IMG/VR virus record: IMGVR_UViG_3300028887_000006 | DNA from: an uncultured virus (IMG/VR IMGVR_UViG_3300028887_000006) | Taxonomy: Duplodnaviria > Heunggongvirae > Uroviricota > Caudoviricetes | Strand: one strand, 5' to 3' | DNA length: 64,000 bases | Shown: positions 1 to 57,600 of the stretch, in pieces | How the letters are laid out: every line of letters begins with the position of its first letter | Position numbering within the stretch: the stretch's first letter is position 1 | Notes under the pieces: generated by a model | What the model was told of the DNA's origin: nothing | The model's database searches: none | Seen by the model: the letters and a program-made list of their open reading frames with translations, nothing else | Program-made: the position numbers and the translations under genes

Positions 1-113
1 AGTAATAAATGATTGTGATAATCAGTATGTTGTGTTGGGCAATTTTAAGAAATTCGCAGAAGACACTTTAAACCAAATCAAAACAGCACTAGAACAAAAG
101 GATGTAAAATGAA
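1..113 (+). repeat. Direct repeat copy 1 (at least 113 bp, truncated by window start)
   Basis: agtaataaatgattg...gatgtaaaatgaa is identical to 37186-37298. Confidence 0.97.
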
Positions 114-1556: not shown

Positions 1557-1814
1557 TTAGCCCTTTTGCTTTCCGTGATTTCTTATTTCATTTAAATGCT
1601 TCCAAAGTTTATATTCTTCGGCAGTTAAAGCACCCTTTTCGCTATTGCATTTTTTACACGCCAGTATTTTATTACTTTCACCATACTCTTTTTGTCTTGA
1701 CTTTGGTGGCTCGTGTTCGATAGTTGCTTCGGATAGTGGAAAATTTTTAAGACAATAGGGGCAGGTGAAACTTACACTTGCCCCATATAATTTTTTCCAC
1801 TTTTTCTTTTTCAT
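1557..1814 (-). CDS. Small HNH endonuclease
   Basis: CPYC...EH..PKS...ACKKCNSEKG; homologue of 48408..48668. Confidence 0.85.
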   Translation of the reverse strand: MKKKKWKKLYGASVSFTCPYCLKNFPLSEATIEHEPPKSRQKEYGESNKILACKKCNSEKGALTAEEYKLWKHLNEIRNHGKQKG

Positions 1815-2309: not shown

Positions 2310-4484
2310 CTAAACTGTTTTTTCGTATTCACATTCAAGTTGTAAGTTATTCATTGACGCTTGTGTGATTTCCAGTGTGTTATCGCCTGCCTGCACTTGT
2401 AATGTCTGTCCTGTAACAGATTCTGTGGTTTCTGTTGCCAGTGGATACACAACGATTACAGGTGTTCCCGCGGCGTATTGTTGTGCAAGGTATGCTTTGA
2501 AAGCCGCCACATTAGGCCATTGTGTTAAATCCGCTTGAATGTATACTCTGTCCCAGTTGATATAACCAGTTGTATTAGTGCCAACTTTTATAACATTAGT
2601 GCTTGATACTATAGTAACGTTTGTATCTACTCCAAGAAAATGAGAACACAAACAACCGTGTGTTTGAGCAATAGCACCAAACCCAGCATTATCTAAATAA
2701 TACCCTTGTGCAACTGTGGCAAAAGCCCAATCTTCAGTTCCATCAAGCACCTTTACCCCGACTTTGCGTGTGACATCGCCAGCCAGTATTTCTTGGACAT
2801 CTTGATAGTCGCCAACCTTTAACAGCATTTCAGCCGTTGCTGTGTTGCCAATTGTGTCTTCTATCGTTTCCACTGTGCCGTCTGTGTAGATTTCAACTGG
2901 GTCGCTTACTGGGTCGCCTGCTGTAAAGTCGCCTGTGCCTGCGTTGGTATAGAACTGCCCGCTTACAAGGTCATACATACCAACGACATTAGACGAGTTC
3001 TTTGCTGGAATATAATTTGCTACCAACGTTCCGTTTTCTTTTATCCATGCATTATAGATTTTTCCTTTAAAGGAAGCAGAGCCACCACCATACCCGCCAA
3101 CCAAACATGTATTTGTGTCAGTATGTGTAAATGTTTGCGTTGTTGGCGTTGCTATTAAAGTATTACCCACGTATAAACCACTTTGTCCGTAAGATATGGT
3201 AACCTTGGTATTTAAATAACTAGAAAGACTATTGCTTGCCATATAATATCCAAATCTATAATATTTATCATACAGTTGGAAAGACTCATCAACTGATACA
3301 TATCTTCCCATAGCACCCTTTAAATTTTCGGCATTAACCGTCATCCCAATTGTATGATTGTTTGACAGATGTATTCCTGTATCAAAGTAAGTTTCTGCTG
3401 GCGAACTAAATGACACATATTCCAACAAAGTATAACCCAACGGCAAACCGCTTTGATGTTTTGCTTTCAACACCCCATTATTGCTTACAATGTCCATTGG
3501 GGCATCGGGGGTTGGTACTGCTTCGCCACCTGCCGCAAATGTGCCTGCTGTTGCTGTCTTAAATGTTCCGCTAACCGTATCATAAAAACCAACAACAGGA
3601 ACTGTGCCTTTCTGCACTGCTGGAACATAGTCAGCAACCAATTCGCCCTGTGCGTTCCATACTTTGAACGAATACAAATAGATACCGATACCAGACGGAA
3701 CCAGTGTGCCCACATTATTAAAACCATTTATAACCAAAGGTCTTGTCATAGTTTGGTTGGGCGTAAATGTATAGGTGTACAATACTGTGTTTCCTTGATA
3801 AACTGTTCCTACACCATTATTCCAAACGAATTTATAGCGAGTATTATTTGTCGCAGCCACTGTTGATGTTGCTCGTTCAGACAAACCGTTTATAAAGAAA
3901 TACTTATCGTTACTGGTTCTGCCTAAACTAAAACCATTGTCCACTGTATTGACATCGCGTATACCAATAAAAGAACCACCTGTTGCTATTAAACTTGTTG
4001 TCGCAAAATCCATTTCAATATGACTATCGTATGTCGGCACAATGTCCGTCAGTAAATACGACCCGTCCATCATATAGATAAACTGCCGTTCAATATACTC
4101 ATCTGGCAGATTCCGCTGTTCTGTTCCACCAAACGCCTTGACATAAGATAGGGAATCAGCAATCGCATCGGGCAATAACAATGGTGAGATGCCCGGCCCA
4201 ACGATAACCTTTTGTCCGCTCGGTCCAGAAACAATCAAAACACGACGAACATTCTGCCCCGGCAAGATACTATTTTGCTTAATTACCAACTGTGTTCCGC
4301 CACGCAGATTATCCAATGGGTCGGTTACTTCTATAACTTTCCAAACAACCCACTCTTTACCAAGTGCAGCAGCGGCATCTATGTCCGCTTGGGTCACTGG
4401 CAACACACGTTGAATATTATGGGCTAAATCACCCAACATTCTTAAATCTGATTCTGAACAAGCCTTAATACGAATTGGTAACAT
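2310..4484 (-). CDS. Receptor-binding/tail protein with two tandem LamG/concanavalin-like modules
   Basis: Internal repeat LPxxYxxxxYI...LVAxYxPA...VGxYDxVSGxF; Thr/Gly-rich beta composition. Confidence 0.65.
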   Translation of the reverse strand: MLPIRIKACSESDLRMLGDLAHNIQRVLPVTQADIDAAAALGKEWVVWKVIEVTDPLDNLRGGTQLVIKQNSILPGQNVRRVLIVSGPSGQKVIVGPGISPLLLPDAIADSLSYVKAFGGTEQRNLPDEYIERQFIYMMDGSYLLTDIVPTYDSHIEMDFATTSLIATGGSFIGIRDVNTVDNGFSLGRTSNDKYFFINGLSERATSTVAATNNTRYKFVWNNGVGTVYQGNTVLYTYTFTPNQTMTRPLVINGFNNVGTLVPSGIGIYLYSFKVWNAQGELVADYVPAVQKGTVPVVGFYDTVSGTFKTATAGTFAAGGEAVPTPDAPMDIVSNNGVLKAKHQSGLPLGYTLLEYVSFSSPAETYFDTGIHLSNNHTIGMTVNAENLKGAMGRYVSVDESFQLYDKYYRFGYYMASNSLSSYLNTKVTISYGQSGLYVGNTLIATPTTQTFTHTDTNTCLVGGYGGGSASFKGKIYNAWIKENGTLVANYIPAKNSSNVVGMYDLVSGQFYTNAGTGDFTAGDPVSDPVEIYTDGTVETIEDTIGNTATAEMLLKVGDYQDVQEILAGDVTRKVGVKVLDGTEDWAFATVAQGYYLDNAGFGAIAQTHGCLCSHFLGVDTNVTIVSSTNVIKVGTNTTGYINWDRVYIQADLTQWPNVAAFKAYLAQQYAAGTPVIVVYPLATETTESVTGQTLQVQAGDNTLEITQASMNNLQLECEYEKTV

Positions 4485-4512: not shown

Positions 4513-4540
4513 AAATCGGCGACTAAAAAGCCACCGATTT
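4513..4540 (-). terminator. Hairpin, probable terminator or stabiliser after the micropeptide
   Basis: Minus-strand AAAUCGGUGGCU-UUUU-AGUCGCCGAUUU. Confidence 0.6.
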
Positions 4541-4570
4541 TTATTTTTTTCTCTTTTTTCCGCACGGCAT
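4541..4570 (-). CDS. 9-aa basic micropeptide MPCGKKRKK
   Basis: SD AAGGAG upstream; homologue at 48844..48882 with synonymous codon changes. Confidence 0.7.
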   Translation of the reverse strand: MPCGKKRKK

Positions 4571-4603
4571 TTTTTTCTCCTTGACTTTTGGTTCTTGTTC
4601 TAG

Positions 4604-4909
4604 TTATAATTCTGTTGAAACGCTACTAGACTCGGTCGATGGCGTTTCTTTTTCTTCTGTCCATTGTCCAATCGCTTGCAAACGCAGTTTTTCTAGCGTT
4701 AATTTGTCGGTCGTTTCAGCATACGCTTGTTTGCGTAATTCGTGCATCTGCGAACGGGTTGGCACAGGTTCTGGAACAACGATTGTTTCGATAATACGAT
4801 ACGTTCCGTCGCCAACCGGTTCGGTCATCAGGTTCGGGTGATTCACAGCACAATAGTTAGCGAACGCAATATGTTCTTTTTTTGTAATAAATTGTCCTAC
4901 TTCATACAT
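4604..4909 (-). CDS. Tail fibre assembly/chaperone-like protein
   Basis: Directly after the tail fibre; ELRKQAY...D motif. Confidence 0.5.
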   Translation of the reverse strand: MYEVGQFITKKEHIAFANYCAVNHPNLMTEPVGDGTYRIIETIVVPEPVPTRSQMHELRKQAYAETTDKLTLEKLRLQAIGQWTEEKETPSTESSSVSTEL

Positions 4910-4920
4910 ATTTCACCTCT

Positions 4921-7900
4921 TTATGCTGCTACGCCAGACACCATCCAATTAGTCATATAATTTACCAAATGTCCGACAGTTATTGTGGTTGTAGTTTTTG
5001 ATTTTACTACGTTTCCATAATTAGGTGCATCGTTTCCTGAATACCCTGTATTACTGCATGCAAAATAATTTGTATCTGTCATTGTTATTGGCAAGTTTAC
5101 TGTTTTGGATGCAGAACTCGCTGTTGTTGATGAAATTTGTCCGCCTTGTTCTACCCAGCCAGATTTGTATTTACGATACCACGTGTAACCATTGCCTGCG
5201 TTTGGTTCTTGGCTTTCTACCACGTAGTCAATCATGTTTGTATTGGCAAAATCTAAATCTGCTTTATCGTTAAATAATTCTGCGTTCAGCCCAGCAGTAT
5301 TTTCTATTGCCGTCTGCGTAAATTCGCCAACATAGAAATACAGATATTTGTATTGGTCTGTGTCTTCAACAGGTGTTGAAATTATACCAGTTTGTGTAGG
5401 GTCTATTGATAATTTAAGTTCGGTTATTCCAGAGGAACCCATTGTTTTATCAGTTTTCATATAAACAGTTTGTCCATTGTTGCCTGCGTTCCAATGAACC
5501 GCTGTATCATTACCAATAACTGGTCTATCGCCATAATGTTCGTGTTTGCTACGTGGCAACTTAAACCGTTTGTTCGGTATATCTATGATATAATACCACG
5601 CTACACCTGTCGCTGTGTAAATGTTAGCAACGTTGGTTTCATCACTCACACTCACAATCTTTCTTCCGCTATGCCCTGTATAAACAGTCAACGAATAACC
5701 AGCAACCGTTTCCGTTGTCGGTGTAACATACGTGTTGCTCATATATGAATATGTATTGCCACTTACGGTTATTTCATCATTGACATCATCATAAGAATCA
5801 ACCGTTCCGATTTGTGTTGTCAGGTCACTATTCAAATACACCGCATCGCCTACCGCTGGTGTTCTTGATTTCGTGTATGCTGGACCACCGCCACCATACC
5901 AGTATGTGCTGACTTGCATATCATAGAACAAATCCCAGAAAGCCGCTTGATATACACTACCAGATTGCCAAGAGAAAGTATCGGCACGCAACCACTGAAC
6001 ATCATTACGCAACGCATCTGACCATTCCCACGCAAACAGGTCTGGGTGGTAACCACCAGTAGTCGCAACCTGAATATCGCCCGAACCCAAGATTGATTCG
6101 CCATTGATTGTCTTGATATTCGTTCCGCTGACTAATTCTGGTTGAAAACCAATCCAGCCACTAACGTTTGAACCACCGTTCCAGTATGTATATTTCCACA
6201 AATATGGCGTTTGATTACCACTTGTCATCGTCAGCACAATAACTTTATTTGCGGCGGTTGTTCCATCCATAATTTCAACAGTTACTTCGGCATTGACCAA
6301 CCCTGATGGCAAATCGCTGAATGTCACTTCGCCCAGATATGCCTTTCCTTTGGTTGCTGTGGTATCTGCCGCAACTGCATCACAGAACGCCTTGGTTGTG
6401 CCACTTGTTGACCAGCCCGCAGGGAATGTTAAATAGGTTGAACGGCTATCGACATAGTCCTTATTGACAATCTGTCCGCCCGCTGGATTAACCGGCATAA
6501 CAACCGTTGAATTGCCTGTAATTTCAATATCTTCAAACGAAATAATCTGTGGGTATGGTGTGAACTCTTTGCTCTGGTGGTTCCACAAAATACGCCCACC
6601 TTGTTGCCCTGCTTGTTCTGCTATATCCCAAATCTTGCTTGTAATTGGCACATAGCCGTCATACTCGGCAGGTGGTGTAATTGTTTCTGTTTGCACCCAC
6701 GCACCCGATTGGCGTTCGTATATCACAATTATTGGGTTACCTTGTCCATCGACTTGTGAAAAGTCCGCATAATTTGTGCCGTTTTCTGCACTTGGTGCAA
6801 CGGTTGCCGAATACATCTTTGCATACCATACACCTTGGTCGGTAATCATACGACCAGAGTTTGCCGCCAAGTCTACTTCACTTTTCAACGCCAATGTTTG
6901 TGGGCTATTTGTCACAGGAACCGCAATATCATAGCCGTTGTTTATAACAGACATATATGCTTTACCAGCAAGATACAAGTCTTTCCATTTGTTCGCACTT
7001 CTACCAAGGTCTATTGCGTTCGTTGTGACTGGTAAGAACTGGCTATCGGTCAGGTTTGCGATGTTTGTTATGTTTCCTTGTGAATCTAATTTCCAGAAAC
7101 TTACACCATTTAAGTACGGACCTACGGCACCACGCATAGAACCAGCCCTGAATTTTAACGGTGCCGTCATAATTGAAGTGCCGTCTATATTGACCTTTCC
7201 ATCTAATGCTGTTCCTGTATCTATAACAAACTGGTCGTAATCTTCTTTCAAATCGTCAAAATCTTCTTCCAATTCATCAAAATTGCGAGTGTTAGACGAT
7301 ATCGCATCGCCATCAACACGGCGTTGTAATGCCGTCAAAACACTCATGCCGTTGTAAATGGTAGCACTAGCCGTCGCATCACCGCAAAGCACCTGCACGT
7401 TCATTGTATCGCCAATTTCAGCGTGCAATGTAGCGGTTTCGCTCTCGGCAAAGTCAATCACAAATTCTTTACAAAACTCAAATGCTTCTTCACGAACATT
7501 AAACTGCTTTGTTATGATTGAATTGCCGATTTTAACCACTAGCGAGAATGGAATTTCGTTATAAACCGAACTATCTAAACTATGTCCACAGAGTTTCAGC
7601 ACCCATTTGGTATTTGGAGTAAAAATTTTTGGACTTGCAAACGTATAAGTCGCATTGACCCACAATGTATTGCCAGATGCCAAGAAAGAGCCAGTTAAAT
7701 CACGCCCATCGCCATAAACGGTCGTGGCTGATACAAGTGTTCCGTTTGACAGTTTCCAGTTGTCTGTGCCTTTCAAAACGGCTGTGGCGTTGCCCCGATG
7801 GTCAGAATATACAACACTGCCGTCAGACGTGCCTGCTGGCATATTTGCAAAAGTCGTCGGTGTGACTTGGTTTTTAATTTCCAACACCGATTTTGCCGTA

Positions 7901-7941
7901 TCTTTTCCTTTCAAATGCTGTATAAACTTATTCTCGGACAT
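4921..7941 (-). CDS. Tail fibre protein
   Basis: GTNIKTINGESILGSGDI, IVNKDYVD and C-terminal WYRKYKSGWVEQGG gp53-like domain; shares its core with 50815..52824. Confidence 0.85.
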   Translation of the reverse strand: MSENKFIQHLKGKDTAKSVLEIKNQVTPTTFANMPAGTSDGSVVYSDHRGNATAVLKGTDNWKLSNGTLVSATTVYGDGRDLTGSFLASGNTLWVNATYTFASPKIFTPNTKWVLKLCGHSLDSSVYNEIPFSLVVKIGNSIITKQFNVREEAFEFCKEFVIDFAESETATLHAEIGDTMNVQVLCGDATASATIYNGMSVLTALQRRVDGDAISSNTRNFDELEEDFDDLKEDYDQFVIDTGTALDGKVNIDGTSIMTAPLKFRAGSMRGAVGPYLNGVSFWKLDSQGNITNIANLTDSQFLPVTTNAIDLGRSANKWKDLYLAGKAYMSVINNGYDIAVPVTNSPQTLALKSEVDLAANSGRMITDQGVWYAKMYSATVAPSAENGTNYADFSQVDGQGNPIIVIYERQSGAWVQTETITPPAEYDGYVPITSKIWDIAEQAGQQGGRILWNHQSKEFTPYPQIISFEDIEITGNSTVVMPVNPAGGQIVNKDYVDSRSTYLTFPAGWSTSGTTKAFCDAVAADTTATKGKAYLGEVTFSDLPSGLVNAEVTVEIMDGTTAANKVIVLTMTSGNQTPYLWKYTYWNGGSNVSGWIGFQPELVSGTNIKTINGESILGSGDIQVATTGGYHPDLFAWEWSDALRNDVQWLRADTFSWQSGSVYQAAFWDLFYDMQVSTYWYGGGGPAYTKSRTPAVGDAVYLNSDLTTQIGTVDSYDDVNDEITVSGNTYSYMSNTYVTPTTETVAGYSLTVYTGHSGRKIVSVSDETNVANIYTATGVAWYYIIDIPNKRFKLPRSKHEHYGDRPVIGNDTAVHWNAGNNGQTVYMKTDKTMGSSGITELKLSIDPTQTGIISTPVEDTDQYKYLYFYVGEFTQTAIENTAGLNAELFNDKADLDFANTNMIDYVVESQEPNAGNGYTWYRKYKSGWVEQGGQISSTTASSASKTVNLPITMTDTNYFACSNTGYSGNDAPNYGNVVKSKTTTTITVGHLVNYMTNWMVSGVAA

Positions 7942-7952
7942 AATCTACTCCA

Positions 7953-22352: not shown

Positions 22353-22573
22353 TTTTCTAACTCCATTTTTGTTTTTTGTTTATCGCAATACTTTTTTAAG
22401 CCTTTGCGATACCGTTTTTCATCTCTTCTCTCGCATTTCCCTGCCCACATAAAGTAGGTGGCAACACAAGCGTTTTTTTCTGCGTGTCGGTCGTATAACT
22501 CCCACGCTTTCCCAGCAAGTTCTGGGTATCTCTCGACTAGGGTCTGCCATTCAGCAAGTTCTTCCTTTGTCAT
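22337..22573 (-). CDS. Hypothetical protein
   Basis: Probable ATG 22573 overlapping the terL stop, SD ggag. Confidence 0.55.
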   Translation of the reverse strand: MTKEELAEWQTLVERYPELAGKAWELYDRHAEKNACVATYFMWAGKCERRDEKRYRKGLKKYCDKQKTKMELEKWLEN

Positions 22574-23955
22574 ACATACACTCCTGCTCCTGCCGCTTTT
22601 TTCAGCGATAGTTCCCACATTTCTTTTAAGGTCTGTGACCTTGGCTTCTCGACTTTTGTAAAATTCTCTAACACGGGGTCATTCGCTATTACGCAATATG
22701 ATGCCGCATCAAAGATATGCGACTTTGCATAGTCTATTGTCTTCATTCCAGGTCTAGCAGGTATCTCTATAATCTTGCCAAACTTGTCATAACTCAATAA
22801 CTTACACGAATGGCATAAGTGCTTGCATTCAGGGTTCACAAGTATATGCGGTTTCCCGTCAAGACCCCGAACGTGCCAATCAAAGTTATTCACTCGGTTG
22901 CTAATACTCGTGTTGGCTTTCGGCACTTGAAAATCAAACCGTATCCGTTCTTTCACTAGCACCTGTTCAATAATAGCATAATTCGAAAATTCACTATTAG
23001 ACGACCTATTACGACCCGATGCGTCGCCATTTATTACCAAGGGGCGACCTTCGTATTTACGGTGGTATATTTTAGCAAACTCTTCCGCAACCCTATATGT
23101 CGACACATTTTCCAGCACAATCTCGTCGCTAAAATAAAAATCGTGGTCACCGTTCCAATGAGCAATTACAGAACACTGCGGGTTGATATTAAAGTCTAAC
23201 GACCAGTATATAGTATTACTCTCGTGGCCGACCCCGATATTCAAGTCAGGATTCCAAGATTTTACCACTGGCGAATCACTAGCAGATTGCAACTTGCCCA
23301 GATATATCATTTTGTAGTCATCAGGGCGGTTCTGTTTCATCATAGAAATATCGTGCAATGTTGCCTCAGGCAAGACAAACGGATTATAGCGGAAATCTTT
23401 GAAACATGTATACGCGTCGTCTCTCTTTGGTGATTCTGGCCCAAACAACTGCCAGACCATATCGCTCTCTTGGTCCGGGTTTGCGCTAATAACAATAAAT
23501 GAATTTTTTGCGCGAATTGTTGGCACCAGACTTTCCCAACTCGCCTTGCTCACAGATTGACCTTCTTCCAACCAACAAATATCAACGTTCGTCATTGACC
23601 GAATATTATGAATCCCGGTCTCTTGTAAGCCGCGGAATATAAACGTAGTGCCATTTGCCGCCCTAATACTGTCGTTATAAATCGCATACGGCAATTCGTA
23701 TTCCCGAATAATATCGCACAACTGGGCGTGAACAGAGTCCTTTATACTCGACATCGTTTGACGTGCGCACAAAATACGCAACGGCTTTAACAACCCCGCT
23801 ATTAACAACGTCTTACTGATATTTACAGATTTACCAATTCCCATACGCCCCGTCAGGTAAGCAAAGTATCTGTATTTATAATTATACAGGTTTTCAAGTA
23901 TCGGCTTAAAATCTGCGACAATATCCAATTTATGCTCCCTCCGGTTTGTCCCCAC
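22570..23955 (-). CDS. terL: Terminase large subunit (PBSX-like)
   Basis: Walker A TGRMGIGKS, CARQTMSSIKDSV, Walker B CWLEEGQ, PTIR, nuclease LDFN and HIFDAASY; start may be TTG 23928. Confidence 0.93.
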   Translation of the reverse strand: MGTNRREHKLDIVADFKPILENLYNYKYRYFAYLTGRMGIGKSVNISKTLLIAGLLKPLRILCARQTMSSIKDSVHAQLCDIIREYELPYAIYNDSIRAANGTTFIFRGLQETGIHNIRSMTNVDICWLEEGQSVSKASWESLVPTIRAKNSFIVISANPDQESDMVWQLFGPESPKRDDAYTCFKDFRYNPFVLPEATLHDISMMKQNRPDDYKMIYLGKLQSASDSPVVKSWNPDLNIGVGHESNTIYWSLDFNINPQCSVIAHWNGDHDFYFSDEIVLENVSTYRVAEEFAKIYHRKYEGRPLVINGDASGRNRSSNSEFSNYAIIEQVLVKERIRFDFQVPKANTSISNRVNNFDWHVRGLDGKPHILVNPECKHLCHSCKLLSYDKFGKIIEIPARPGMKTIDYAKSHIFDAASYCVIANDPVLENFTKVEKPRSQTLKEMWELSLKKAAGAGVYV

Positions 23956-36981: not shown

Positions 36982-37297
36982 TCTTAAATGTCCGTTTTGC
37001 GGGTGCGAATTAGAAGATGCACAAATACACTCTTCGGGGTTGTATTTTGAGTGCCCAAATTGCTATGCCAAACAAAAAGAAAAAGACGATAACTACACAG
37101 CGACACCAAAGGTTTGGCAAGAACTTATACGAACACGCAAGGCATTGGATGTTGCGACAGGGTTTATTAAAGGAATATCACAAACAGTAATAAATGATTG
37201 TGATAATCAGTATGTTGTGTTGGGCAATTTTAAGAAATTCGCAGAAGACACTTTAAACCAAATCAAAACAGCACTAGAACAAAAGGATGTAAAATGA
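36974..37297 (+). CDS. Lar-like zinc-ribbon protein with RTRKALDVA module
   Basis: LKCPFCG...CPNC; its 3' end is the junction repeat. Confidence 0.65.
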   Translation: MTNLKCPFCGCELEDAQIHSSGLYFECPNCYAKQKEKDDNYTATPKVWQELIRTRKALDVATGFIKGISQTVINDCDNQYVVLGNFKKFAEDTLNQIKTALEQKDVK

Positions 37298-37298
37298 A
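37186..37298 (+). repeat. Direct repeat copy 2
   Basis: Identical to 1-113; identity ends just after the ATG of the next gene. Confidence 0.97.
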
Positions 37299-37644
37299 CG
37301 ACAAACCAATTATAAATAATTCAGCCAATGATTTTTCCGTTCGTATGAGCATTAGACGAACCGATATAGATAAACAAATCGAGATATTGCATGGGCAAAT
37401 AAATCTTTTGAACACACAGGGCATTATAACAGCAGAAACAGAAGAGTTGTTGTGGAATCAACTGCGAGAAGTTATAGTTTGCAAAAACAAAATAGAATCT
37501 GACTATTACGATATGCGTAATACGCTGGAACGACAAGAACACAACAAAGAAACTGCATCGTCTGCTCTTCGTGAAATTGGCAAAGAAGATTCAACCTCAG
37601 GATTTAAAGCAAGAAACGCACTCAACGCAATAACGGGAGAATGA
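37294..37644 (+). CDS. Hypothetical coiled-coil protein (first phage B-specific gene)
   Basis: Starts at the repeat end. Confidence 0.65.
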   Translation: MNDKPIINNSANDFSVRMSIRRTDIDKQIEILHGQINLLNTQGIITAETEELLWNQLREVIVCKNKIESDYYDMRNTLERQEHNKETASSALREIGKEDSTSGFKARNALNAITGE

Positions 37645-42661: not shown

Positions 42662-43018
42662 ATGGGTGTTCATATTGGCGGTTGGGTCGGTGAAAGATTA
42701 GAAGCAGTAGAACACGGCGCCAGCAAAGTGGCAGATTTTGCACTCGATGTTGGTGGCTGGGCTATGGGTGCTACAACTGGATATAATCCACGTGCAGAAT
42801 ATAAGGCTCAAAAAACTCAAAGACAAGCATTGGAATCTCAGCAACGTGCTTATGCAGAACAATCGGCAGAAATTGCTAGACAGAAGAAGATTCAACAAGA
42901 GCAACAACGTAGAGAAAATATGCAACTCATGAACAGCATTTCAAACCTTACAAACACTTCATATGGTGGTGTTTCTTCCCCATCTATTGACTACGATAAA
43001 TATGGAGATTTAGGATAA
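42662..43018 (+). CDS. Small virion protein upstream of the portal
   Basis: SD aagga; Gln-rich helix; ends LG like T7-type pre-portal genes. Confidence 0.6.
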   Translation: MGVHIGGWVGERLEAVEHGASKVADFALDVGGWAMGATTGYNPRAEYKAQKTQRQALESQQRAYAEQSAEIARQKKIQQEQQRRENMQLMNSISNLTNTSYGGVSSPSIDYDKYGDLG

Positions 43019-44607
43019 TGAATATACAAGATATTGAAACTAGATTTTCTAAAGCACAAGCAGATAAAGATGTTTGGGATTCTCTCTATCAATCTGTGTT
43101 CCGTATGACGATGCCTAATCGTGATTCGTTCTACATAGACGAAAACATCCCAAATAACTGGGAAAATACACGTCTGTTAACCAATGTTGGTTGTGAAGCA
43201 GCAGATAACTTTGCTTCTCGTTTTCAACGTATTATCTGTTCAGATGGGCAGACAATAGCAAGTGTACAAGCACCTGACTTTGGCGGGTTTGAAGATTCTG
43301 CAGACCAACGTGCTTTTGATGCTAATGTATCTAAGTCAATAAATCGTTGTTTGATTCAAAACTTAGGCAATTATCTTGAATCTGCTTACGATTTAGTCGC
43401 AGGCACAACAGTATGTTTTCGTACATTTGATATGCTTTCTCGCAGATTTTATCGTGTGCCAGTGCCAATCAAAGACGTGGCTCTCACAAAAGGGTTTACT
43501 GGCGAAACAGATGGCTATTATCGTGTATTAAAAATCAAACGTGAAGAACTTCCTGCAACATTTGTAGAATTGGAAGGCCGTACAACGTTTAATGGTGTTC
43601 CTACAACTAAAAGCAATGCGTGTGATATTCTTGAATTGCATGAATCTACAATCTACAACTACGAAGATGGTTTGTGGCATTATTACGTAACTTTGGGCCA
43701 AGAATTGTTAATTGACCGTTCGGCTGAATTCTGCGATTTCGGTTCTGACTTCTGGACAAGAAAGCCGGGTTCTGTTTATGGAATTGGCGTTGGTGTTAAA
43801 GCGTTGCCAGAATTAAATCAACTTAACGCACTTAGATACTATTCTACGTTTGGTTTAATGTTCCGTGCTGCGCCAATGTGGTTAGTAAATCAAAACCATC
43901 AGCTTGACTATGACCGTTTGGAAATGAAGCCAATGGAATTGATACCAGTGGAATCCACAGGCAAAGACAATCCATCGTTGACACCGTTAATGTTGGGCGA
44001 TGACCCGAATGTTCAACAGTGGAATCAGACACAGATGGAAATGAATATTAAGTCTGTTATGTTGGCGGAAACAATTCCAAATCAAACAAACCAAAGAATG
44101 ACAGCAACAGAAATCGCTGCTAGAACAAACAGATTGAATACCGTATCTAACAATATGGTTTCTGTAGCACAACATATGATTGAAGCCGATGTTCGCTGGT
44201 TGCTGTGGAAGTTCCAAGAAATACCGGGCTTTTACCCTGAAAGCTTCCCGATCAAACAGTATGTTGAAAACTGCCGTATAACACTGGCTTCAACAGAAGT
44301 AAAAGATACAGAACAGATTCAAGCCATCGCAACAATGATTGATATGTTTAATGTTGCAGCACAAGACGGTTCATTAACAGCATCGGCATTGAATAAACCA
44401 AAATATGCTAATCGTTTGGCTGAATTGTTGCGTGTAGATGAAGATATTGTATTGCCAGAAGGAGAAATCTCTAGCAATATGCAGGCGATGGCACAAGCAC
44501 AACAAGAAGCAGAAATAGCTAAACAACGTGCGCAATTCGCTCGTGAAATAGCAGTTGAAGCTTATAAAAACGGGCAAATGCCTGGCAACATGGGATTACC
44601 AGAATAA
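43018..44607 (+). CDS. Portal / head-to-tail connector (T7 gp8-like)
   Basis: W..KPGSVYGIG...ALPEL..LN, MTATEI..R. Confidence 0.9.
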   Translation: MNIQDIETRFSKAQADKDVWDSLYQSVFRMTMPNRDSFYIDENIPNNWENTRLLTNVGCEAADNFASRFQRIICSDGQTIASVQAPDFGGFEDSADQRAFDANVSKSINRCLIQNLGNYLESAYDLVAGTTVCFRTFDMLSRRFYRVPVPIKDVALTKGFTGETDGYYRVLKIKREELPATFVELEGRTTFNGVPTTKSNACDILELHESTIYNYEDGLWHYYVTLGQELLIDRSAEFCDFGSDFWTRKPGSVYGIGVGVKALPELNQLNALRYYSTFGLMFRAAPMWLVNQNHQLDYDRLEMKPMELIPVESTGKDNPSLTPLMLGDDPNVQQWNQTQMEMNIKSVMLAETIPNQTNQRMTATEIAARTNRLNTVSNNMVSVAQHMIEADVRWLLWKFQEIPGFYPESFPIKQYVENCRITLASTEVKDTEQIQAIATMIDMFNVAAQDGSLTASALNKPKYANRLAELLRVDEDIVLPEGEISSNMQAMAQAQQEAEIAKQRAQFAREIAVEAYKNGQMPGNMGLPE

Positions 44608-47958: not shown

Positions 47959-48405
47959 ATGTATAGAGTAACCTGGACTTCTAGCAAAGCACTTTACGCA
48001 ATCGGTGGTGCTATTTTCTCTTTTACGCAAAATATTCACTCTGCTATGGTCGGGTTACTTATCTGCATGGCTCTTGATACTCTATCAGGTCTTGTCGCTG
48101 CCCCTTATCGTGGGCAAAGACGAGAAAGCACAAAATTATCTCGACTAGTATTGAAAACAATAACATACTTCACAGCAGCAATAGCATTACATGTTGCCGA
48201 AAATATGGTTTTACCAACTTATATCGCAGGAACATTGGAATTATCAAGAATGGCGTTCTCTGTGTTCTGCATACTTGAAATTTATAGTATATTAGAAAAC
48301 ATGCGTGATATAACAGGTTTAAGGGCATTTGACATACTGACATTAAACTTTAAGAAAAAAGTAGAAGAGTCTGTAGGTATTGAAGTTCCAAAACAAAAGG
48401 AATAA
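47959..48405 (+). CDS. Holin (phage holin 4-like)
   Basis: LDTLSGLVAA, S.KL....K, E..SILENM; three TM helices. Confidence 0.8.
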   Translation: MYRVTWTSSKALYAIGGAIFSFTQNIHSAMVGLLICMALDTLSGLVAAPYRGQRRESTKLSRLVLKTITYFTAAIALHVAENMVLPTYIAGTLELSRMAFSVFCILEIYSILENMRDITGLRAFDILTLNFKKKVEESVGIEVPKQKE

Positions 48406-48407
48406 AG

Positions 48408-48668
48408 ATGAAAGCAAGACGGTGGAAAAAGTTATACGGTGCAACTGTGAGTTTTACATGCCCATATTGCCTGAAACAATTTCCACTGTCTGAAGCAACC
48501 AAAGACCATATTACCCCAAAATCACGTGGGGGAAAAACAGAACCAGCCAACATTGTGCTAGCCTGCAAACCATGCAACAATGAAAAAGGCGCATTAGATG
48601 CAGCAGAATACGCAGAATGGAAAAGATTGGAATTCATAAGAACAGGTAGAACAAACCAAAGGAACTAA
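48408..48668 (+). CDS. Small HNH endonuclease
   Basis: CPYC, DHITPKSRGG, NIVLACKPCNNEKG. Confidence 0.88.
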   Translation: MKARRWKKLYGATVSFTCPYCLKQFPLSEATKDHITPKSRGGKTEPANIVLACKPCNNEKGALDAAEYAEWKRLEFIRTGRTNQRN

Positions 48669-48670
48669 AC

Positions 48671-48832
48671 ATGAAAGCACACAAAGGAATGGGATTCAAA
48701 GCAGCACAGAAACAAATCGCAAGAAAAGAAGGCGTTAGCATGAAACAGGCTGGTGCTATTCTTGCAAGCTCAACACGTAAGGCCAGTCCTGCAGCCAAGC
48801 GTGCCAATCCAAACCTAAGAAAAGTGAAATAA
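48671..48832 (+). CDS. 53-aa highly basic protein (MKAHKGMGFKAAQKQIARKEGVS...NPNLRKVK)
   Basis: Translated by hand; SD aagga. Confidence 0.7.
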   Translation: MKAHKGMGFKAAQKQIARKEGVSMKQAGAILASSTRKASPAAKRANPNLRKVK

Positions 48833-48843
48833 AGGAGTTAATC

Positions 48844-48882
48844 ATGCCCTGTGGGAAAAAGCGCAAAGGCGGGAAAAAATAA
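48844..48882 (+). CDS. 12-aa basic micropeptide MPCGKKRKGGKK
   Basis: SD AAGGAG; homologue of 4541..4570. Confidence 0.7.
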   Translation: MPCGKKRKGGKK

Positions 48883-48885
48883 GCC

Positions 48886-48914
48886 TTGACATTTTATTGG
48901 TTTCGCACTATATT
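48886..48914 (+). promoter_or_regulatory. Promoter TTGACA-17-TATATT
   Basis: Sequence. Confidence 0.6.
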
Positions 48915-48943
48915 ATAAGCCTAACCAGTATTACTTAAAACCT

Positions 48944-48975
48944 AAACACCCTGGCGATTGTTGGGGTGTTTTTTT
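48944..48975 (+). terminator. Intrinsic terminator
   Basis: AAACACCCUGGC/GUUGGGGUGUUU followed by a U-tract. Confidence 0.8.
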
Positions 48976-50119: not shown

Positions 50120-50527
50120 TCAAGGAATAAAAATTCGTCTTCCACTTTTGGGCATTAACGTAGATAAATGCACCCAATTCCCGTTTTTTCCATAAGTATA
50201 TTCTGGGTTTTCCATCCACAAACCATGCACTTCCAGTTTGCGTGTATTGTTTTTAAGCCATTTTGCCAGTTCGCCCGTTGGGTCTGCTATATCCACAGCA
50301 CACCCGTATAGATGGCTACTTCCCATTGCTTTTGGGTTGATTCTTTGTTGGTCTTTTATTGATCGCAGGCATGATGTTGCTCTCATTGGTGGGTTGTATC
50401 CTAGAGAATTGATTTTCAGTATTAAATCTTCCAGGTTTCTTTTGGTTACTGGGTCTATCTCTGATTCTTTCCACTTGTGTTGACCTGCATTCAGCAGTTC
50501 CGAAAGAGAGAATTTCACTTTATCCAC
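50120..50527 (-). CDS. Endolysin, peptidase M15 family
   Basis: TSCLRS, SSHLYGCAVDI, WVHL. Confidence 0.88.
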   Translation of the reverse strand: MDKVKFSLSELLNAGQHKWKESEIDPVTKRNLEDLILKINSLGYNPPMRATSCLRSIKDQQRINPKAMGSSHLYGCAVDIADPTGELAKWLKNNTRKLEVHGLWMENPEYTYGKNGNWVHLSTLMPKSGRRIFIP

Positions 50528-50805
50528 CTTTGTTTCGCTAAGAACACGATAATCATACCAATAATTATCACAATCAGTGTATTATTGCGTTCCTTATATG
50601 TTTGCAGTCTTTCTTCGCATGAAGCATATTGGCTTTTTATGCTTGATTGGAGAGCAATAATATCTCTGTCTATTTTGGCCTGCGGACACTCTTTTTTTAT
50701 TTTGGCTTCAACTGCACTAACTTGATTTAATGCTGTTTCTGTGGCTAATTCTGGTGCTGTTTTAGCGCATCCAATCAGAGCCAGTGCAATCAATAGTTTT
50801 TTCAT
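50515..50805 (-). CDS. Putative spanin-like lipoprotein
   Basis: LALIGC lipobox, coiled coil, C-terminal TM; adjacent to the endolysin. Confidence 0.6.
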   Translation of the reverse strand: MKKLLIALALIGCAKTAPELATETALNQVSAVEAKIKKECPQAKIDRDIIALQSSIKSQYASCEERLQTYKERNNTLIVIIIGMIIVFLAKQRWIK

Positions 50806-54687: not shown

Positions 54688-57600
54688 TCATTTACACTCC
54701 AAGTCTTTTAAGAAGTTATCTAAATCTTTATCTGCAATCTTATCTTGGTGTTTGAGAGATTCATCCAACAGTTTAAGTGCAGAATCGTATTCTTGTTTAG
54801 CTTTCTTATTATCTAACGCCTTATTGAACTTCATATCAAGTGATTTCAATGCAGACACAACGTCAATATCGGTTGATTGCTTGAAATTACGGAATCCTGC
54901 GACACGTTGACCTAACTCTTTTGCCAAACGATTCGCTACTTCGCTGTTTTTCAATTCGTCAATCAAGCCCAAATCGCCATTTTCAACAGCCAAACGTTCC
55001 AGAGCAGTGTATAAATCTTCCTTATACAACCCTTCAACTTCTGCCATTTGACCGTTAATTATCGCCAAAGCATCATCAAGACGTGTTTTTACAAAGTTGT
55101 CTGCCACTTCTGCCACTTGCATCATATCACGATGTGAATCGTATTTATCGCCCTTTAATGCCATACCGTTTCCGTCTATTTCCTTAGCCAATGCTGACAA
55201 TCTGCGTTGGATACTGTTTTGGTTTCCACCTTCAACTTCATAACGTGCTGTATCATTTAAGGTCTTTGCTTCTTCGAGTGCCAGTTTTGTTTCTTCGTCT
55301 GTTGTGTTTTCAATAACAGTATCTATTGCACGGTTTAACTTTTCGTTCGCCGCTTGTGATTCTGTCATTTCGCCACGTTCAACCATAACATCAAGGTCTG
55401 TGATATTAACTACACGGTCAAACCATGCTTTCAGTTCTGGTTTTAGTTCGCCTAACCTACCCCATGTCTGTTTGAAATATGGGTTGCTGATGTCGTTATA
55501 AATATCACGCAGTTCGCCCTGATAATCTTTCATCAGTTTTTCAACGGCATCTCTGTCTTTGTTGTCAACACTGATAAACTTTGTCCAATCTTCGTTTTGA
55601 ACAATCCATGCTTCGTAAGCACGAGCAAATGCTTCACTTGCCTTACGTGGTACAGACGTTGCATTTTCTGGTATTCCAAGAGCTTTTTCCAACGCACCCC
55701 ATGCTTTCATGAAATCTTTGCTTTGTTTCCCAGAACGATAGCGGTCAAAGTTTGCTTCCATCCAGTCATGAGCCAATTCGTGAGATAATGTGGAAGCATC
55801 CATCTTGTTTGCACGCAAGATAAATCTGTATTCTGGTATGTATGCACCACGATATGTTGATGGTGCGGCACCAGATGGGCGGTTTTGCCAGTAAATATTC
55901 CCAGTATCCGCGCTGAACGTGCCACGGTTGTCTACAGATTTGATTTGACTTGGTTCAAAAACAATATGTTCGTCCCCTGCAATAGTCCCATCATAACCAC
56001 GTGATTTTATGATGTTTGATAATTCTTCGGCAAGACCATTTGTTCTGATGTAATCTGTGAAAGATAAATCTTGAATCAAGAAATTCAAATCGTTGAAATG
56101 TGCATATTCGCCCCAAGCATTATTCAACGCATTTTCTTTGGTATCTTCTTTTTCGTTATAGCCGACTTCTTCCCAAGGTCTATATGAATTTGATTCATAA
56201 CTTCTGCCGTTTTTCTCAAAACTTGCCCGCCAAACTTGAACTTCGTTGTGTTTTGCATCGTAAGTATAGATTTTTTCCACCTTGGCATTTTTCAAAAATT
56301 CTTTTTTCAATCTTTCGTATTTATTAAAATCTTTCAAGTCGTTTTCTGCCAACAACCCCAAATCTTTTAATAATTGTCCGCCGCCTTCAAACAAATTATC
56401 ATACAACCCAGAATAATAACCACCGGTTGATACAATAAATGGTTTTTCTATTTTAAGATACACCGGCATTACAATTCTTCCATAGTATCGTGCTTCTGAT
56501 TCTATTGGTGTAAAGTAAAATCCCGAACCGAAGAAACCACTGTCTGTTGCATAACCAAATGTTGTTGGATCAAAACTATCAAATGTATTGCTTGTGCCGT
56601 GATACATAACAATAGGTCTGCCTTCTTCGTCAACCACCTTTGAATCGCCAAACCATTTATAGAAATTACGCAGGGCAGGTTCTGATTGTGCGATGCGTTC
56701 GCCGTTTGAATTATAAACTGTGCGTTCTTTTCCGTCTATGTTGATTGTTTCGCCCTTGTATTCAGGGTAAATATCGTCAAGACGTGCGTTTTCATCAGCG
56801 ATGTCAAACTGTTCTTGGAACATTGGTTGTTCGCCAAACCCGATATTAACACCACCTTTTGCCTTTTTGTTGGTCTGTGGGTATTTGTTTTCTATCAAGT
56901 TGCGAATACGCGCCAATATCTGCTCTGGTGTCATCGTTGCTACGTTGAAATTGGCAACAACAGATTTATGCAATGTGCCTATTGGCGTAACACCCAAGCG
57001 AATCTTAAAGCCTTTCCCACCTTGTGGGTTTATCTGTAAATATACAGCACCGTGTTTCGTTGGCTTCAATTCATCTATTTTTTGTACATTTACACCTTCG
57101 TTAGACAATGTATTGAACACGAGAGATGCCGAACTATTAGCCAATTCTTTTTGTTCTTGTGTAGCTTCAAACGCATCTAACGCTTTCTGTTTTTCTTTTT
57201 CAACGTATCTATCTTCAAGTTTCTTAAACTCTGTTGCAAGGTCTGATACTCTTTCCAACACATACTGGCTTGCTTGTGCCAATTTATTTTCGGTTTCTTC
57301 AATTTTCGCCCAATCTTTCTTTTCGGCTTTGTTCAATTCTTCCAGTTGGGATTTTAATTCAACAATATTATCGTTGATAGATTTGATTTCGGCACGTTGT
57401 GCTTCTGGTATGCCTTCTCTAAACCAACCAAGTTCATTTACTTCGCCTTGAAATATCTCATGGTCTGTGATTTCAATACCACGGTCTATCGCATCCATAG
57501 CAATCAGGGAATATTCCAAATCTGTGGTAGCGTCTATTATTGTGTCTTTGTTGTCCACATCAACATCACGATACATTAACGCTACTTTATTGCGTAGATT

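What the first reader, a model, noticed from the sequence alone, without database searches (positions are those of the whole stretch)
4541..4570. Conserved 9-12 aa micropeptide MPCGKKRK(K/GGKK) in both phages
Seen: phage A minus strand reads atg ccg tgc gga aaa aag aga aaa aaa taa; phage B (48844-48882) reads atg ccc tgt ggg aaa aag cgc aaa ggc ggg aaa aaa taa. The first 8 residues are identical while 4 codons differ synonymously (P, C, G, R), a signature of protein-level selection. Both have an AAGGAG SD and sit at the end of a late gene block just before a hairpin or terminator, with different neighbours. Both are below gene-caller thresholds. Inference: a Cys-containing polycationic peptide, possibly a DNA-condensing core peptide, a lysis or outer-membrane permeabilising accessory, or a translational regulator.
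Basis: partly seen in the sequence, partly recalled or inferred. Interest (0 to 1): 0.78.

Follow-up and report, generated by a model that had tools for sequence, protein, structure and literature searches.

The report
Phage polybasic micropeptide genes resembling bS22
Two tiny genes in two cattle-gut phages belong to a large, undescribed family of 8-20-residue, very basic phage peptides whose fixed first six to eight residues match the start of the small ribosomal protein bS22, which suggests but does not show that phages use them on the host ribosome.

Summary
Both micro-ORFs exist as described: MPCGKKRKK at 4541-4570(-) and MPCGKKRKGGKK at 48844-48882(+). Each has AAGGAG six bases upstream, and four codons differ synonymously. 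They are not chance. Back-translated patterns found 14 and 84 sites in IMG/VR, against 0 and 1 for codon-permuted controls. By my filter, 87 of the 180 sites from two scans are 8-20-aa polybasic ORFs, and 75 of those 87 have a Shine-Dalgarno site. All Pro, Cys and Gly codons are used. Syntenic relatives differ by synonymous changes, one in-frame codon indel and one Pro-to-Ser change. In bacterial genomes the same pattern hits the 29-35-aa ribosomal protein bS22 (118 of 120 loci; PDB 7JIL, 9I5V, 8FMW). The phage peptides therefore carry the bS22 N-terminal head followed by a short Lys/Gly/Arg/Pro tail, and lack the bS22 helix. My best reading (about 0.4) is a headpiece mimic that binds the 30S pocket between h44 and h45. 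The main rival (about 0.3) is a DNA counter-ion packaged in the capsid. Host, expression and function are untested. The window holds two ~36-kb phage genomes joined at a shared repeat. No paper in the library contains the motif.

The parts
4541..4570 (-). Micro-ORF A, 9 codons plus stop, MPCGKKRKK
   Evidence: sequence. Identical in IMG/VR record G001. Syntenic variants MSCGKKRKK and MPCGKKKGGKK in relatives.
4577..4582 (-). Shine-Dalgarno AAGGAG of ORF A, 6-nt spacer
   Evidence: The 29 nt upstream of the ATG are identical in relative L240, while the ORF itself carries 7 base changes.
4513..4540 (-). 12-bp hairpin starting directly after the stop codon of ORF A; end of the transcription unit
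   Evidence: -18 kcal/mol, z -4.4, 0 of 200 shuffles as stable. Relatives carry different GC-rich hairpins with U tracts at the same place. The consensus terminator scan did not call it.
4604..4909 (-). Upstream 101-aa ORF of phage A, no family match
   Evidence: Not conserved upstream of the micro-ORF in L239 and L243.
2310..4484 (-). Downstream 724-aa late gene of phage A, used as the synteny anchor
   Evidence: The micro-ORF is present upstream of its homologue in 4 of 6 distinct contigs (7 loci; one contig appears twice and one is the window's own record).
48844..48882 (+). Micro-ORF B, 12 codons plus stop, MPCGKKRKGGKK
   Evidence: Identical in G002. Relative G003 has MPCGKKKGGKK at the same place.
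48832..48837 (+). Shine-Dalgarno AAGGAG of ORF B, 6-nt spacer; overlaps the stop codon of the 53-aa gene by one base
48671..48832 (+). 53-aa basic protein gene that precedes the micro-ORF in B and in G003
   Evidence: Homologues in Bradyrhizobium phage ppBeUSDA76-2 and Agrobacterium phage Atu_ph07. No micro-ORF in the 181 bases read there.
48886..48971 (+). Promoter-like site (TTGACA-17-TATATT, 48886-48914) and intrinsic terminator (48944-48971) directly after ORF B; module shared with L250 and L253

Best explanation
Both ORFs are real, translated accessory genes of a phage family that encodes 8-20-residue polycations. The family has a fixed head, Met-Pro-(Cys/Tyr)-Gly-Lys-Lys-(Lys/Arg), followed by a variable Lys/Gly/Arg/Pro tail, with net charge +4 to +11. 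In these two phages they are transcribed with late (virion and lysis) genes. The head equals the N-terminal segment of the 29-35-aa ribosomal protein bS22 of the Bacteroidota-Chlorobiota-Ignavibacteria group, spirochaetes and allies. bS22 lies in an rRNA pocket of the 30S subunit between helices h44 and h45, under the decoding centre, and its C-terminal lysines reach the 50S subunit. My committed reading is that the phage peptide is a 'head-only' look-alike of bS22. It would enter the same rRNA pocket, either competing with host bS22 or filling an empty pocket, but it lacks the helix along h44 and the bridge to the 50S subunit, and so would alter subunit joining, initiation or decoding during late infection. 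What is shown: the genes, their conservation at the peptide level, and the identity of their head to bS22. What is inferred: descent from or mimicry of bS22, binding to the ribosome, and any effect on translation.
For: Gene reality. The pattern scans found 14 and 84 IMG/VR sites, against 0 and 1 for codon-permuted controls. All 14 sites of the first scan are 8-16-aa ORFs. By my filter 87 of 180 sites are family-like, with 51 distinct peptides and 76 distinct upstream contexts. All 4 Pro, both Cys and all 4 Gly codons are used. A strict Shine-Dalgarno site is present in 75 of 87 members, against 19 of 93 non-family hits. Searches not anchored on the peptide also recovered it: relatives found through neighbouring genes carry MSCGKKRKK (one non-synonymous and three synonymous codon changes behind an identical 29-nt leader) and MPCGKKKGGKK. 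G003 differs from B by one in-frame codon and 3 synonymous changes. bS22 link. The same pattern in 185,579 species genomes hit at least 120 loci. Of these, 118 are 29-35-aa ORFs beginning MPCGKKRKRHK..., 1 is cut by a contig end and 1 is unrelated. One of them matches PDB bS22 chains 7jil_5, 9i5v_10 and 8fmw_V at E 9e-10 to 2e-7. Position 3 is the variable position in both bS22 (C, S or N) and the phage peptides (C, Y or K), while M1, P2, G4, K5 and K6 are fixed in both. A bS22 profile scores 51 of 52 distinct phage peptides above all but at most 2 of 200 composition-matched shuffles. Literature, passages read. bS22 lies between h44 and h45 and touches H70 or H68 (PMC7797042, PMC12123416, PMC10618245). 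It is lost from isolated 30S subunits, so it is exchangeable (PMC13000457). Losing it changes the aminoglycoside site (bioRxiv 10.1101/2023.03.31.535098). In the homologous mS38 the segment before the bend protrudes into the rRNA (PMC6582356). Phages are known to encode exchangeable ribosomal proteins (PMC6375957).
Against: Only 6-8 residues are shared. Nothing of the bS22 helix remains: tails are K 61%, G 15.5%, R 14% and P 6.6%, whereas the rest of bS22 has G 0.2% and P 0%. Gly/Pro-rich lysine tails suggest unspecific binding to nucleic acid. The bS22 profile was built from sequences selected with the phage-derived pattern, so its head is fixed by construction. Met-Pro at the start could be convergent, for example as protection against aminopeptidases (my inference). 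The Tyr and Lys forms have no known bS22 counterpart: MPYGKKxK was not found in 401 alphaproteobacterial genomes or 5 others. The host is unknown, so I cannot show that it has bS22. The genes sit in late or packaging modules and not among early takeover genes. Full-length bS22 on IMG/VR contigs turned out to lie in host flank in the one record I examined, so there is no phage-borne full-length intermediate of this type. No RNA or protein evidence exists.
Confidence: 0.4

Rival explanations
1. DNA counter-ion or condensing peptide. The polycation is made late, packaged with the genome (or binds it during packaging or ejection) and neutralises DNA charge in the capsid. It would play the role of polyamines, or of the basic core peptides of some animal viruses. 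The similarity of the head to bS22 would be convergent.
For: Net charge is +4 to +11 in 8-20 residues, and tails are rich in Lys, Gly and Pro with PKGK or PKPK-type repeats. The genes lie at the end of late operons in A and B. In other phages they lie beside the small terminase (L003), before the large terminase (L004), between portal and Mu-F-like head protein (L008), and between terminase and portal (L014). Tail length and sequence vary freely while the charge is kept.
Against: A mere counter-ion would not need an invariant Met-Pro-Cys/Tyr-Gly head kept across 76 sequence contexts. Three loci lie next to early HTH_36 genes. No virion data exist. Close relatives do without it: I found none in G004, G005 or G006, though those searches were limited.
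Confidence: 0.3
2. Cis-acting translation device. What matters is that ribosomes translate this short ORF (or the nascent peptide), not the free peptide. For example, a ribosome stopping at the end of ORF A would cover the 5' arm of the terminator hairpin and set read-through into the next late gene. Alternatively, lysine-codon runs could sense translation capacity.
For: In phage A the hairpin starts at the base after the stop codon. A-type relatives keep an ORF-plus-terminator arrangement with unrelated hairpin sequences. In B, L250 and L253 the ORF sits at a transcription-unit boundary. Shine-Dalgarno sites are very strong.
Against: Many members lie inside operons, 12-24 nt before the next gene and with no hairpin. 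In B the terminator is 62 nt away, beyond a promoter-like site. Lys codons vary freely between AAA and AAG. Conservation of Pro, Cys/Tyr and Gly at the amino-acid level is not explained unless the nascent chain acts in the exit tunnel, and I know of no precedent for that with this motif.
Confidence: 0.12
3. Lysis accessory. A cationic peptide is released at holin triggering and helps to permeabilise the outer membrane or the wall, in the manner of the cationic 'disruptin' gp28 of phage phiKT.
For: The ORF lies two genes after the holin in B, directly before a Phage_holin_4_1 holin in L005, and 380 nt before a lysozyme in L015. Cationic lysis peptides are known in phages (bioRxiv 10.1101/515445; I saw only the search listing and the start of the abstract).
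Against: The peptides have no hydrophobic or amphipathic part. Phage B already has a spanin-like lipoprotein with a C-terminal membrane anchor (50515-50805). Most contexts are not lysis cassettes.
Confidence: 0.08
4. No function: chance ORFs or decaying fragments of a captured bS22 gene.
For: The ORFs are extremely short and of low complexity. The gene is accessory, and I did not find it in some relatives.
Against: Enrichment is 14 against 0 and 84 against 1 over permuted controls. Shine-Dalgarno sites occur in 86% of members. Variation is synonymous, and the one indel seen is in frame. The ORF occurs in dozens of unrelated phage backbones.
Confidence: 0.03

Closest known systems
Ribosomal protein bS22 of the Bacteroidota/spirochaete type (PDB 7JIL chain 5, 9I5V chain 10, 8FMW chain V; related in fold to mS38 and eL41)
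   Same: The N-terminus Met-Pro-x-Gly-Lys-Lys-Arg/Lys-Lys is identical, with the same variable position 3. Both are tiny, extremely basic peptides, and both genes are missed by gene callers.
   Different: bS22 is a 29-35-aa chromosomal housekeeping protein with a basic helix (core HKRKK) and C-terminal lysines that reach the 50S subunit. The phage peptides are 8-20 aa with Gly/Pro-rich tails, have no helix segment, are accessory, and were seen only on phage contigs.
Phage-encoded ribosomal proteins (bS21, bL12 and 12 others; Mizuno et al. 2019, PMC6375957; bS21 phages, PMC9723584)
   Same: Phage genes related to small, exchangeable ribosomal proteins. bS22 is likewise lost from isolated 30S subunits (PMC13000457).
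   Different: Those are full-length homologues that are incorporated into ribosomes. Here only a 6-8-residue head is shared. bS22 is not mentioned in PMC6375957 (0 occurrences).
Cationic lysis peptide ('disruptin') gp28 of phage phiKT (bioRxiv 10.1101/515445)
   Same: A small cationic phage gene product. Some family members lie near holin or lysozyme genes.
   Different: gp28 is described as a cationic antimicrobial peptide that replaces spanins (listing only). The peptides here have no hydrophobic face, and phage B has a spanin-like gene.
Leader-peptide / terminator attenuators of bacterial operons
   Same: A short ORF with a strong ribosome-binding site that ends at a terminator hairpin (phage A lineage).
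   Different: Here the ORF lies at the end of an operon or inside one, not in a 5' leader. The peptide sequence itself is conserved across unrelated contexts, and many members have no hairpin.

Membership tests
Ribosomal protein bS22 (FCB/spirochaete type) | N-terminal motif Met-Pro-x-Gly-Lys-Lys-Arg-Lys | tested here: met
   Both window peptides match all 8 residues of 118 bacterial bS22 ORFs. The wider phage family keeps MPxGKK followed by K or R.
Ribosomal protein bS22 (FCB/spirochaete type) | Length about 28-35 residues with a basic helix (core HKRKK plus Leu/Ile/Ala/Thr positions) and a C-terminal Lys run | tested here: not met
   Length is 8-20 aa. Tails are K 61%, G 15.5%, R 14% and P 6.6%, with no His, Leu or Ile core. 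The rest of bS22 has G 0.2% and P 0%.
Ribosomal protein bS22 (FCB/spirochaete type) | Significant whole-sequence or profile match | tested here: inconclusive
   The bS22 profile gives 5-17 bits. 51 of 52 peptides exceed all but at most 2 of 200 shuffles, but the head of the profile is fixed by how its sequences were found. Pfam and NCBIfam do not recognise even the three full-length bS22 ORFs tested.
Ribosomal protein bS22 (FCB/spirochaete type) | Single chromosomal housekeeping gene of the cell | tested here: not met
   The micro-ORFs are on phage contigs, at varied positions, and I did not find them in some close relatives. No micro-type ORF with a Shine-Dalgarno site was found in 121 Treponemataceae genomes.
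Ribosomal protein bS22 (FCB/spirochaete type) | Bound in the 30S pocket between h44 and h45 | not testable with these tools
   This needs binding assays or cryo-EM. The complex predictor takes no RNA and needs chains of at least 30 residues.
Cationic lysis peptides (disruptin type) | Amphipathic cationic peptide in a lysis cassette of a phage that lacks a spanin | tested here: not met
   No hydrophobic residues. B has a lipobox plus C-terminal membrane-anchor protein at 50515-50805. Only 3 of 12 distinct contexts are near lysis genes.
Leader-peptide transcription attenuator | The ribosome on the short ORF overlaps a terminator or antiterminator structure that controls downstream genes | tested here: inconclusive
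   Met in phage A and its relatives. Not met in B, where the terminator is 62 nt away, nor in members inside operons.
Viral DNA-condensing core polycations | Highly basic peptide present in the virion with the genome | not testable with these tools
   Composition fits. Presence in virions needs proteomics.

The most novel reading that the evidence does not exclude
Phages of Shine-Dalgarno-using, double-membraned gut and environmental bacteria carry the smallest known ribosome-directed gene. Its 8-20-residue product copies only the rRNA-inserting N-terminal head of ribosomal protein bS22. It plugs the pocket under the decoding centre without forming the bridge between the subunits, and so retunes or shuts down host translation late in infection.
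Probability: 0.3. Interest if true: 0.9.

Novelty: new variant of a known kind. Interest (0 to 1): 0.74.

Why it matters
Genes of 9-20 codons are invisible to gene callers and to protein databases. Here one such gene recurs in many unrelated phage backbones with clear selection at the peptide level. If the peptide acts on the ribosome, it would be a minimal natural ligand of the h44/h45 pocket next to the aminoglycoside site, a new way for phages to take over translation, and a lead for peptide probes of bS22 function, which is itself still unclear. If it is a capsid counter-ion, it would be the first gene-encoded polyamine substitute that I know of in tailed phages. In either case the peptide can be synthesised and tested directly, and the family shows that scans for conserved micro-ORFs can recover real biology.

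Tried and rejected
- Megablast of both loci against 50,697 GenBank phage records gave no match. Terminase and portal show at most 31% identity to cultured phages, so there is no model phage.
- Host search. No capsid homologue in 121 Treponemataceae genomes. No micro-type ORF with a Shine-Dalgarno site in the same sample. The protein atlas placed the holin near clusters that are partly from Bacteroidota (a weak lead). Against a Bacteroidia host, 24 of 45 window genes have a strict Shine-Dalgarno site, compared with 32 of 1005 internal ATGs. The host stays unknown.
- Cellular counterpart of the Tyr form. MPYGKKxK was found in 0 of 5 genomes and 0 of 401 alphaproteobacterial genomes.
- Full-length bS22 in phages. 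The six MPSG-type hits on IMG/VR contigs share one locus. In the one record I examined it lies among DnaK, RNase E/G, HU and MutY next to an integrase, so it is host flank.
- One search used a pattern that required Lys at position 9 and wrongly suggested that G003 lacks the gene. Searches corrected this.
- Frameshifting. ORF A contains an A-AAA-AAG run before the hairpin, but other members use GGA AAG AAA and similar codons, so a slippery site is not conserved.
- Expression. No RNA holder was listed.
- Pfam and NCBIfam gave no hit for the three full-length bS22 ORFs tested, apart from COX24_C at E 0.53 for one of them.
- The 53-aa neighbour has homologues in a Bradyrhizobium phage and an Agrobacterium phage, but I saw no micro-ORF in the 181 bases read after the first.
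- Literature. 'MPCGKKRK' occurs in 0 papers. 'bS22' together with 'phage' gave 11 papers, none of which, by title or abstract, concerns a phage bS22-like gene.
- I did not use the complex or structure predictors, because the chains are under 30 residues and RNA cannot be included.

Full report
**What is in the window**

On the minus strand at 4570..4541 the sequence reads ATG CCG TGC GGA AAA AAG AGA AAA AAA TAA, encoding MPCGKKRKK, with AAGGAG six bases upstream. At 48844-48882 on the plus strand it reads ATG CCC TGT GGG AAA AAG CGC AAA GGC GGG AAA AAA TAA, encoding MPCGKKRKGGKK, again with AAGGAG six bases upstream. The first eight residues are identical, and the Pro, Cys, Gly and Arg codons differ synonymously.

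**Two phages, not one**

- Window 1-113 repeats at 37186-37298.
- Window 15-37306 is identical to IMG/VR record G001 (37,292 b). The rest is identical to G002 (35,728 b, ends overlapping by 253 b). The two share 178 identical bases at 37129-37306.
- Part A has its own large terminase (22570-23955), a weak capsid match, Sak and YqaJ recombination genes, a VapE-like helicase and a cytosine methylase.
- Part B has its own T7-type portal (43018-44607), a holin (47959-48405), an M15-like endolysin and a 1380-aa polyvalent protein.
- Relatives of each type are ~36-kb records with direct terminal repeats (G007 for A; G003 for B, rated 100% complete).
- In the one run that holds the DNA, contigs break and branch at 37157-37300, and depth is 15 on the A side and 21 on the B side.

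The window is therefore two related phage genomes joined through a shared repeat. That run, and most of the runs holding small shares of the stretch, are labelled bovine or gut metagenomes. 24 of 45 window genes have a strict Shine-Dalgarno site, against 32 of 1005 internal ATGs. B also encodes a lipoprotein with a C-terminal membrane anchor, which looks like a spanin. The host is therefore probably a double-membraned bacterium that uses Shine-Dalgarno sites. I could not identify it.

**Is it more than chance?**

- The pattern ATGCCNTGYGGNAARAARMGNAAR has 14 sites in the 2.9 million IMG/VR contigs. All 14 are ORFs of 8-16 codons, consisting of MPCGKKRK plus a K/G/R/P tail, each preceded by a GGAG-type site. 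The same codons in permuted order have 0 sites.
- The variant with Lys at position 7 (MPCGKKK) has 84 sites. Its permuted control has 1.
- With a simple filter (at most 22 aa, Cys or Tyr at position 3, at least 45% Lys+Arg), 87 of the 180 sites from that scan and the position-3-free scan qualify: 75 with Cys and 12 with Tyr. They comprise 51 distinct peptides in 76 distinct 25-nt upstream contexts. Lengths are 8-20 aa with a median of 12 among the distinct peptides, and net charge is +4 to +11. All four Pro codons, both Cys codons and all four Gly codons are used.
- A strict Shine-Dalgarno site is present in 75 of 87 family members, against 19 of 93 other hits from the same scans.
- A scan that left position 3 free (MPxGKKKK, 99 sites) gave 58 closed ORFs of at most 22 aa: Cys 28, Lys 17, Tyr 9, Arg 3, Met 1.
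- There are also 25-27-aa Tyr forms.

**Tests not anchored on the peptide**

Relatives of A were found through the 724-aa downstream gene.
- L240 (62% identity) has MSCGKKRKK. The 29 bases before the ATG are identical to A, but the 30-base ORF has seven changes: one non-synonymous codon (Pro to Ser) and three synonymous codons.
- L239 and L243 have MPCGKKKGGKK behind a different upstream gene.
- Two more distant relatives have none at that place.

In the B lineage, G003 carries MPCGKKKGGKK directly after the homologue of the 53-aa gene that precedes ORF B. It differs from B by one in-frame codon and three synonymous changes. An earlier negative result for G003 came from a pattern that was too strict. 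I found no such ORF in G004, G005 or G006, with limited patterns and partly incomplete records. The gene therefore appears to be accessory.

Across phages the neighbours vary: small terminase, large terminase, portal and Mu-F-like protein, tail-fibre-like genes, holin, lysozyme, and in three loci early HTH_36 genes. In the A lineage the ORF is always the last cistron before a hairpin or terminator, and the hairpin sequences are unrelated. In B, L250 and L253 it is followed by a conserved module of promoter-like site, short spacer and terminator.

**What it resembles**

Of these, 118 are 29-35-aa ORFs of the form MPCGKKRKRHK(I/M)(A/S)THKRKKRLRKNRHKKK.., one is cut by a contig end and one is unrelated. 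They come from Bacteroidota, Ignavibacteria, Chlorobiota, Marinimicrobia, Cloacimonadota, Omnitrophota, WOR-3, Latescibacterota, Treponema and others.

One of these ORFs matches the bS22 chains of the Flavobacterium johnsoniae, Porphyromonas gingivalis and Borrelia burgdorferi ribosome structures, 7jil_5, 9i5v_10 and 8fmw_V, at E 9e-10 to 2e-7. In Treponemataceae, 17 of the 24 sites found in 23 of 121 genomes are such bS22 genes, each with a strong Shine-Dalgarno site.

The phage peptides thus carry the exact N-terminal head of bS22. In both sets position 3 varies: C, S or N in bS22, and C, Y or K in phages. M1, P2, G4, K5 and K6 are fixed in both.

A profile of 46 distinct bS22 sequences scores 51 of 52 distinct phage peptides above all but at most 2 of 200 composition-matched shuffles. 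The head of that profile is fixed by the way its members were found, so this test shows only that residue order matches, not homology.

Nothing beyond the head is shared. Phage tails are Lys/Gly/Arg/Pro. The remainder of bS22 is a His/Leu/Ile/Thr-containing basic helix with essentially no Gly or Pro. The peptides therefore fail the membership test for bS22.

**What is known of bS22** (passages read, not whole papers)

- It lies between h44 and h45 and contacts H70 or H68 of the large subunit (PMC7797042, PMC12123416, PMC10618245).
- It is a bent helix. In the homologous mS38, the part before the bend protrudes into the rRNA next to the decoding centre (PMC10618245, PMC6582356).
- It is absent from isolated 30S subunits but present in 70S complexes, and its C-terminal lysines face the 50S subunit and the predicted IF3 site (PMC13000457).
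- Its loss in Mycobacterium smegmatis alters the kanamycin pocket (bioRxiv 10.1101/2023.03.31.535098).
- Phages are known to encode small exchangeable ribosomal proteins, but bS22 is not named in the survey (0 occurrences in PMC6375957).

**Interpretation**

I rate it about 0.9 likely that these are real, translated genes for peptides under selection. On mechanism I commit, at about 0.4, to a head-only bS22 look-alike that enters the h44/h45 pocket of the host small subunit without providing the helix or the bridge between subunits.

The main rival, at about 0.3, is a DNA counter-ion made late and packaged. The Gly/Pro-rich lysine tails and the frequent position beside packaging genes favour it. 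The invariant head is harder to explain on that reading.

The remaining readings are:
- a cis-acting translation or termination device (0.12);
- a lysis accessory (0.08);
- no function (0.03).

Met-Pro at the start could be convergent, since an N-terminal Pro left after Met removal would resist aminopeptidases. This is my inference, and it weakens the homology argument.

**Novelty**

No paper in the searched library contains the motif. None of the 11 papers holding both 'bS22' and 'phage' concerns such a gene, judged by title and abstract. Earlier notes of this scan report full-length bS22-like genes in other phages and other polybasic phage micro-genes, but not this family. Those notes are unchecked leads.

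**Limits**

- The host is unknown.
- There is no RNA, ribosome-profiling or proteomic evidence.
- The counts depend on my family filter and on patterns that fix most of the head.
- IMG/VR contigs from related samples are not independent.
- I could not scan cultured phage genomes for the motif.

Noticed in passing
window 1-113 and 37186-37298; 37129-37306: The window is a composite. A complete ~37.2-kb phage unit with a 113-b end repeat is joined to a second ~35.5-kb phage through 178 identical bases, the 3' end of a 110-aa gene. Contigs branch at this node and depth differs on the two sides (15 against 21). CheckV rates the two IMG/VR halves 51% and 49% complete, probably because a ~73-kb joined form serves as its reference.
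   Followed up: yes
window 48886-48975 (+): Directly after ORF B there is a near-consensus promoter-like site (TTGACA-17-TATATT), and about 30 nt later a 12-bp terminator. Together they would give a ~55-nt RNA. The -35 box and the terminator are conserved in L250 and L253, while the sequence between them differs.
   Followed up: partly
window 50515-50805 (-): A 96-aa protein with a lipoprotein signal (lipobox ending in Cys) and a C-terminal membrane helix lies next to the M15-like endolysin. It looks like a single-component spanin, which implies a host with an outer membrane.
   Followed up: no
window 1557-1814 (-) and 48408-48668 (+): Both phages carry closely related 85-86-aa HNH endonuclease genes near their holin-like genes. 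With the 178-b identical segment, this shows that A and B exchange DNA.
   Followed up: no
window 48671-48832 (+): A 53-aa basic protein (core ..KQAGAILASSTRKAS..) precedes the micro-ORF in B and in G003. It has 60% identical homologues in Bradyrhizobium phage ppBeUSDA76-2, two genes before the large terminase, and in Agrobacterium jumbo phage Atu_ph07. It has no PHROG match at E 0.001 or below, and I did not scan it against Pfam.
   Followed up: partly
window 54688-58830 (-): A 1380-aa polyvalent protein with an ART-PolyVal (ADP-ribosyltransferase) domain lies in phage B. This is typical of large injected or internal virion proteins.
   Followed up: no
IMG/VR loci L360, L373, L374, L385 and others: A separate 13-aa family, MPKGKKKKGGKKK or ..GAKKK, occurs at 17 sites with a conserved upstream sequence and no Shine-Dalgarno site. 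There are also 25-27-aa forms beginning MPYGKKSK.. or MPYGKKKKMKTKK.. on marine-looking contigs. These may be bS22-like proteins of other phage groups.
   Followed up: no
L459 (G535:C1:9000-25000), bS22 at about 7861-7950 (-): In this Bacteroidota-type provirus record the host bS22 gene lies between an HU gene and an RNase E/G gene, near DnaK and MutY and a few kb from the integrase. IMG/VR 'viral' hits to full-length bS22 are therefore host flank, in the one record examined.
   Followed up: yes
window 4541-4570 (-): ORF A contains the run A-AAA-AAG in frame, followed by a strong hairpin, which is the layout of a -1 frameshift site. The -1 frame would give a 29-aa product ending at the start codon of the next gene. 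The run is not conserved in other family members.
   Followed up: partly
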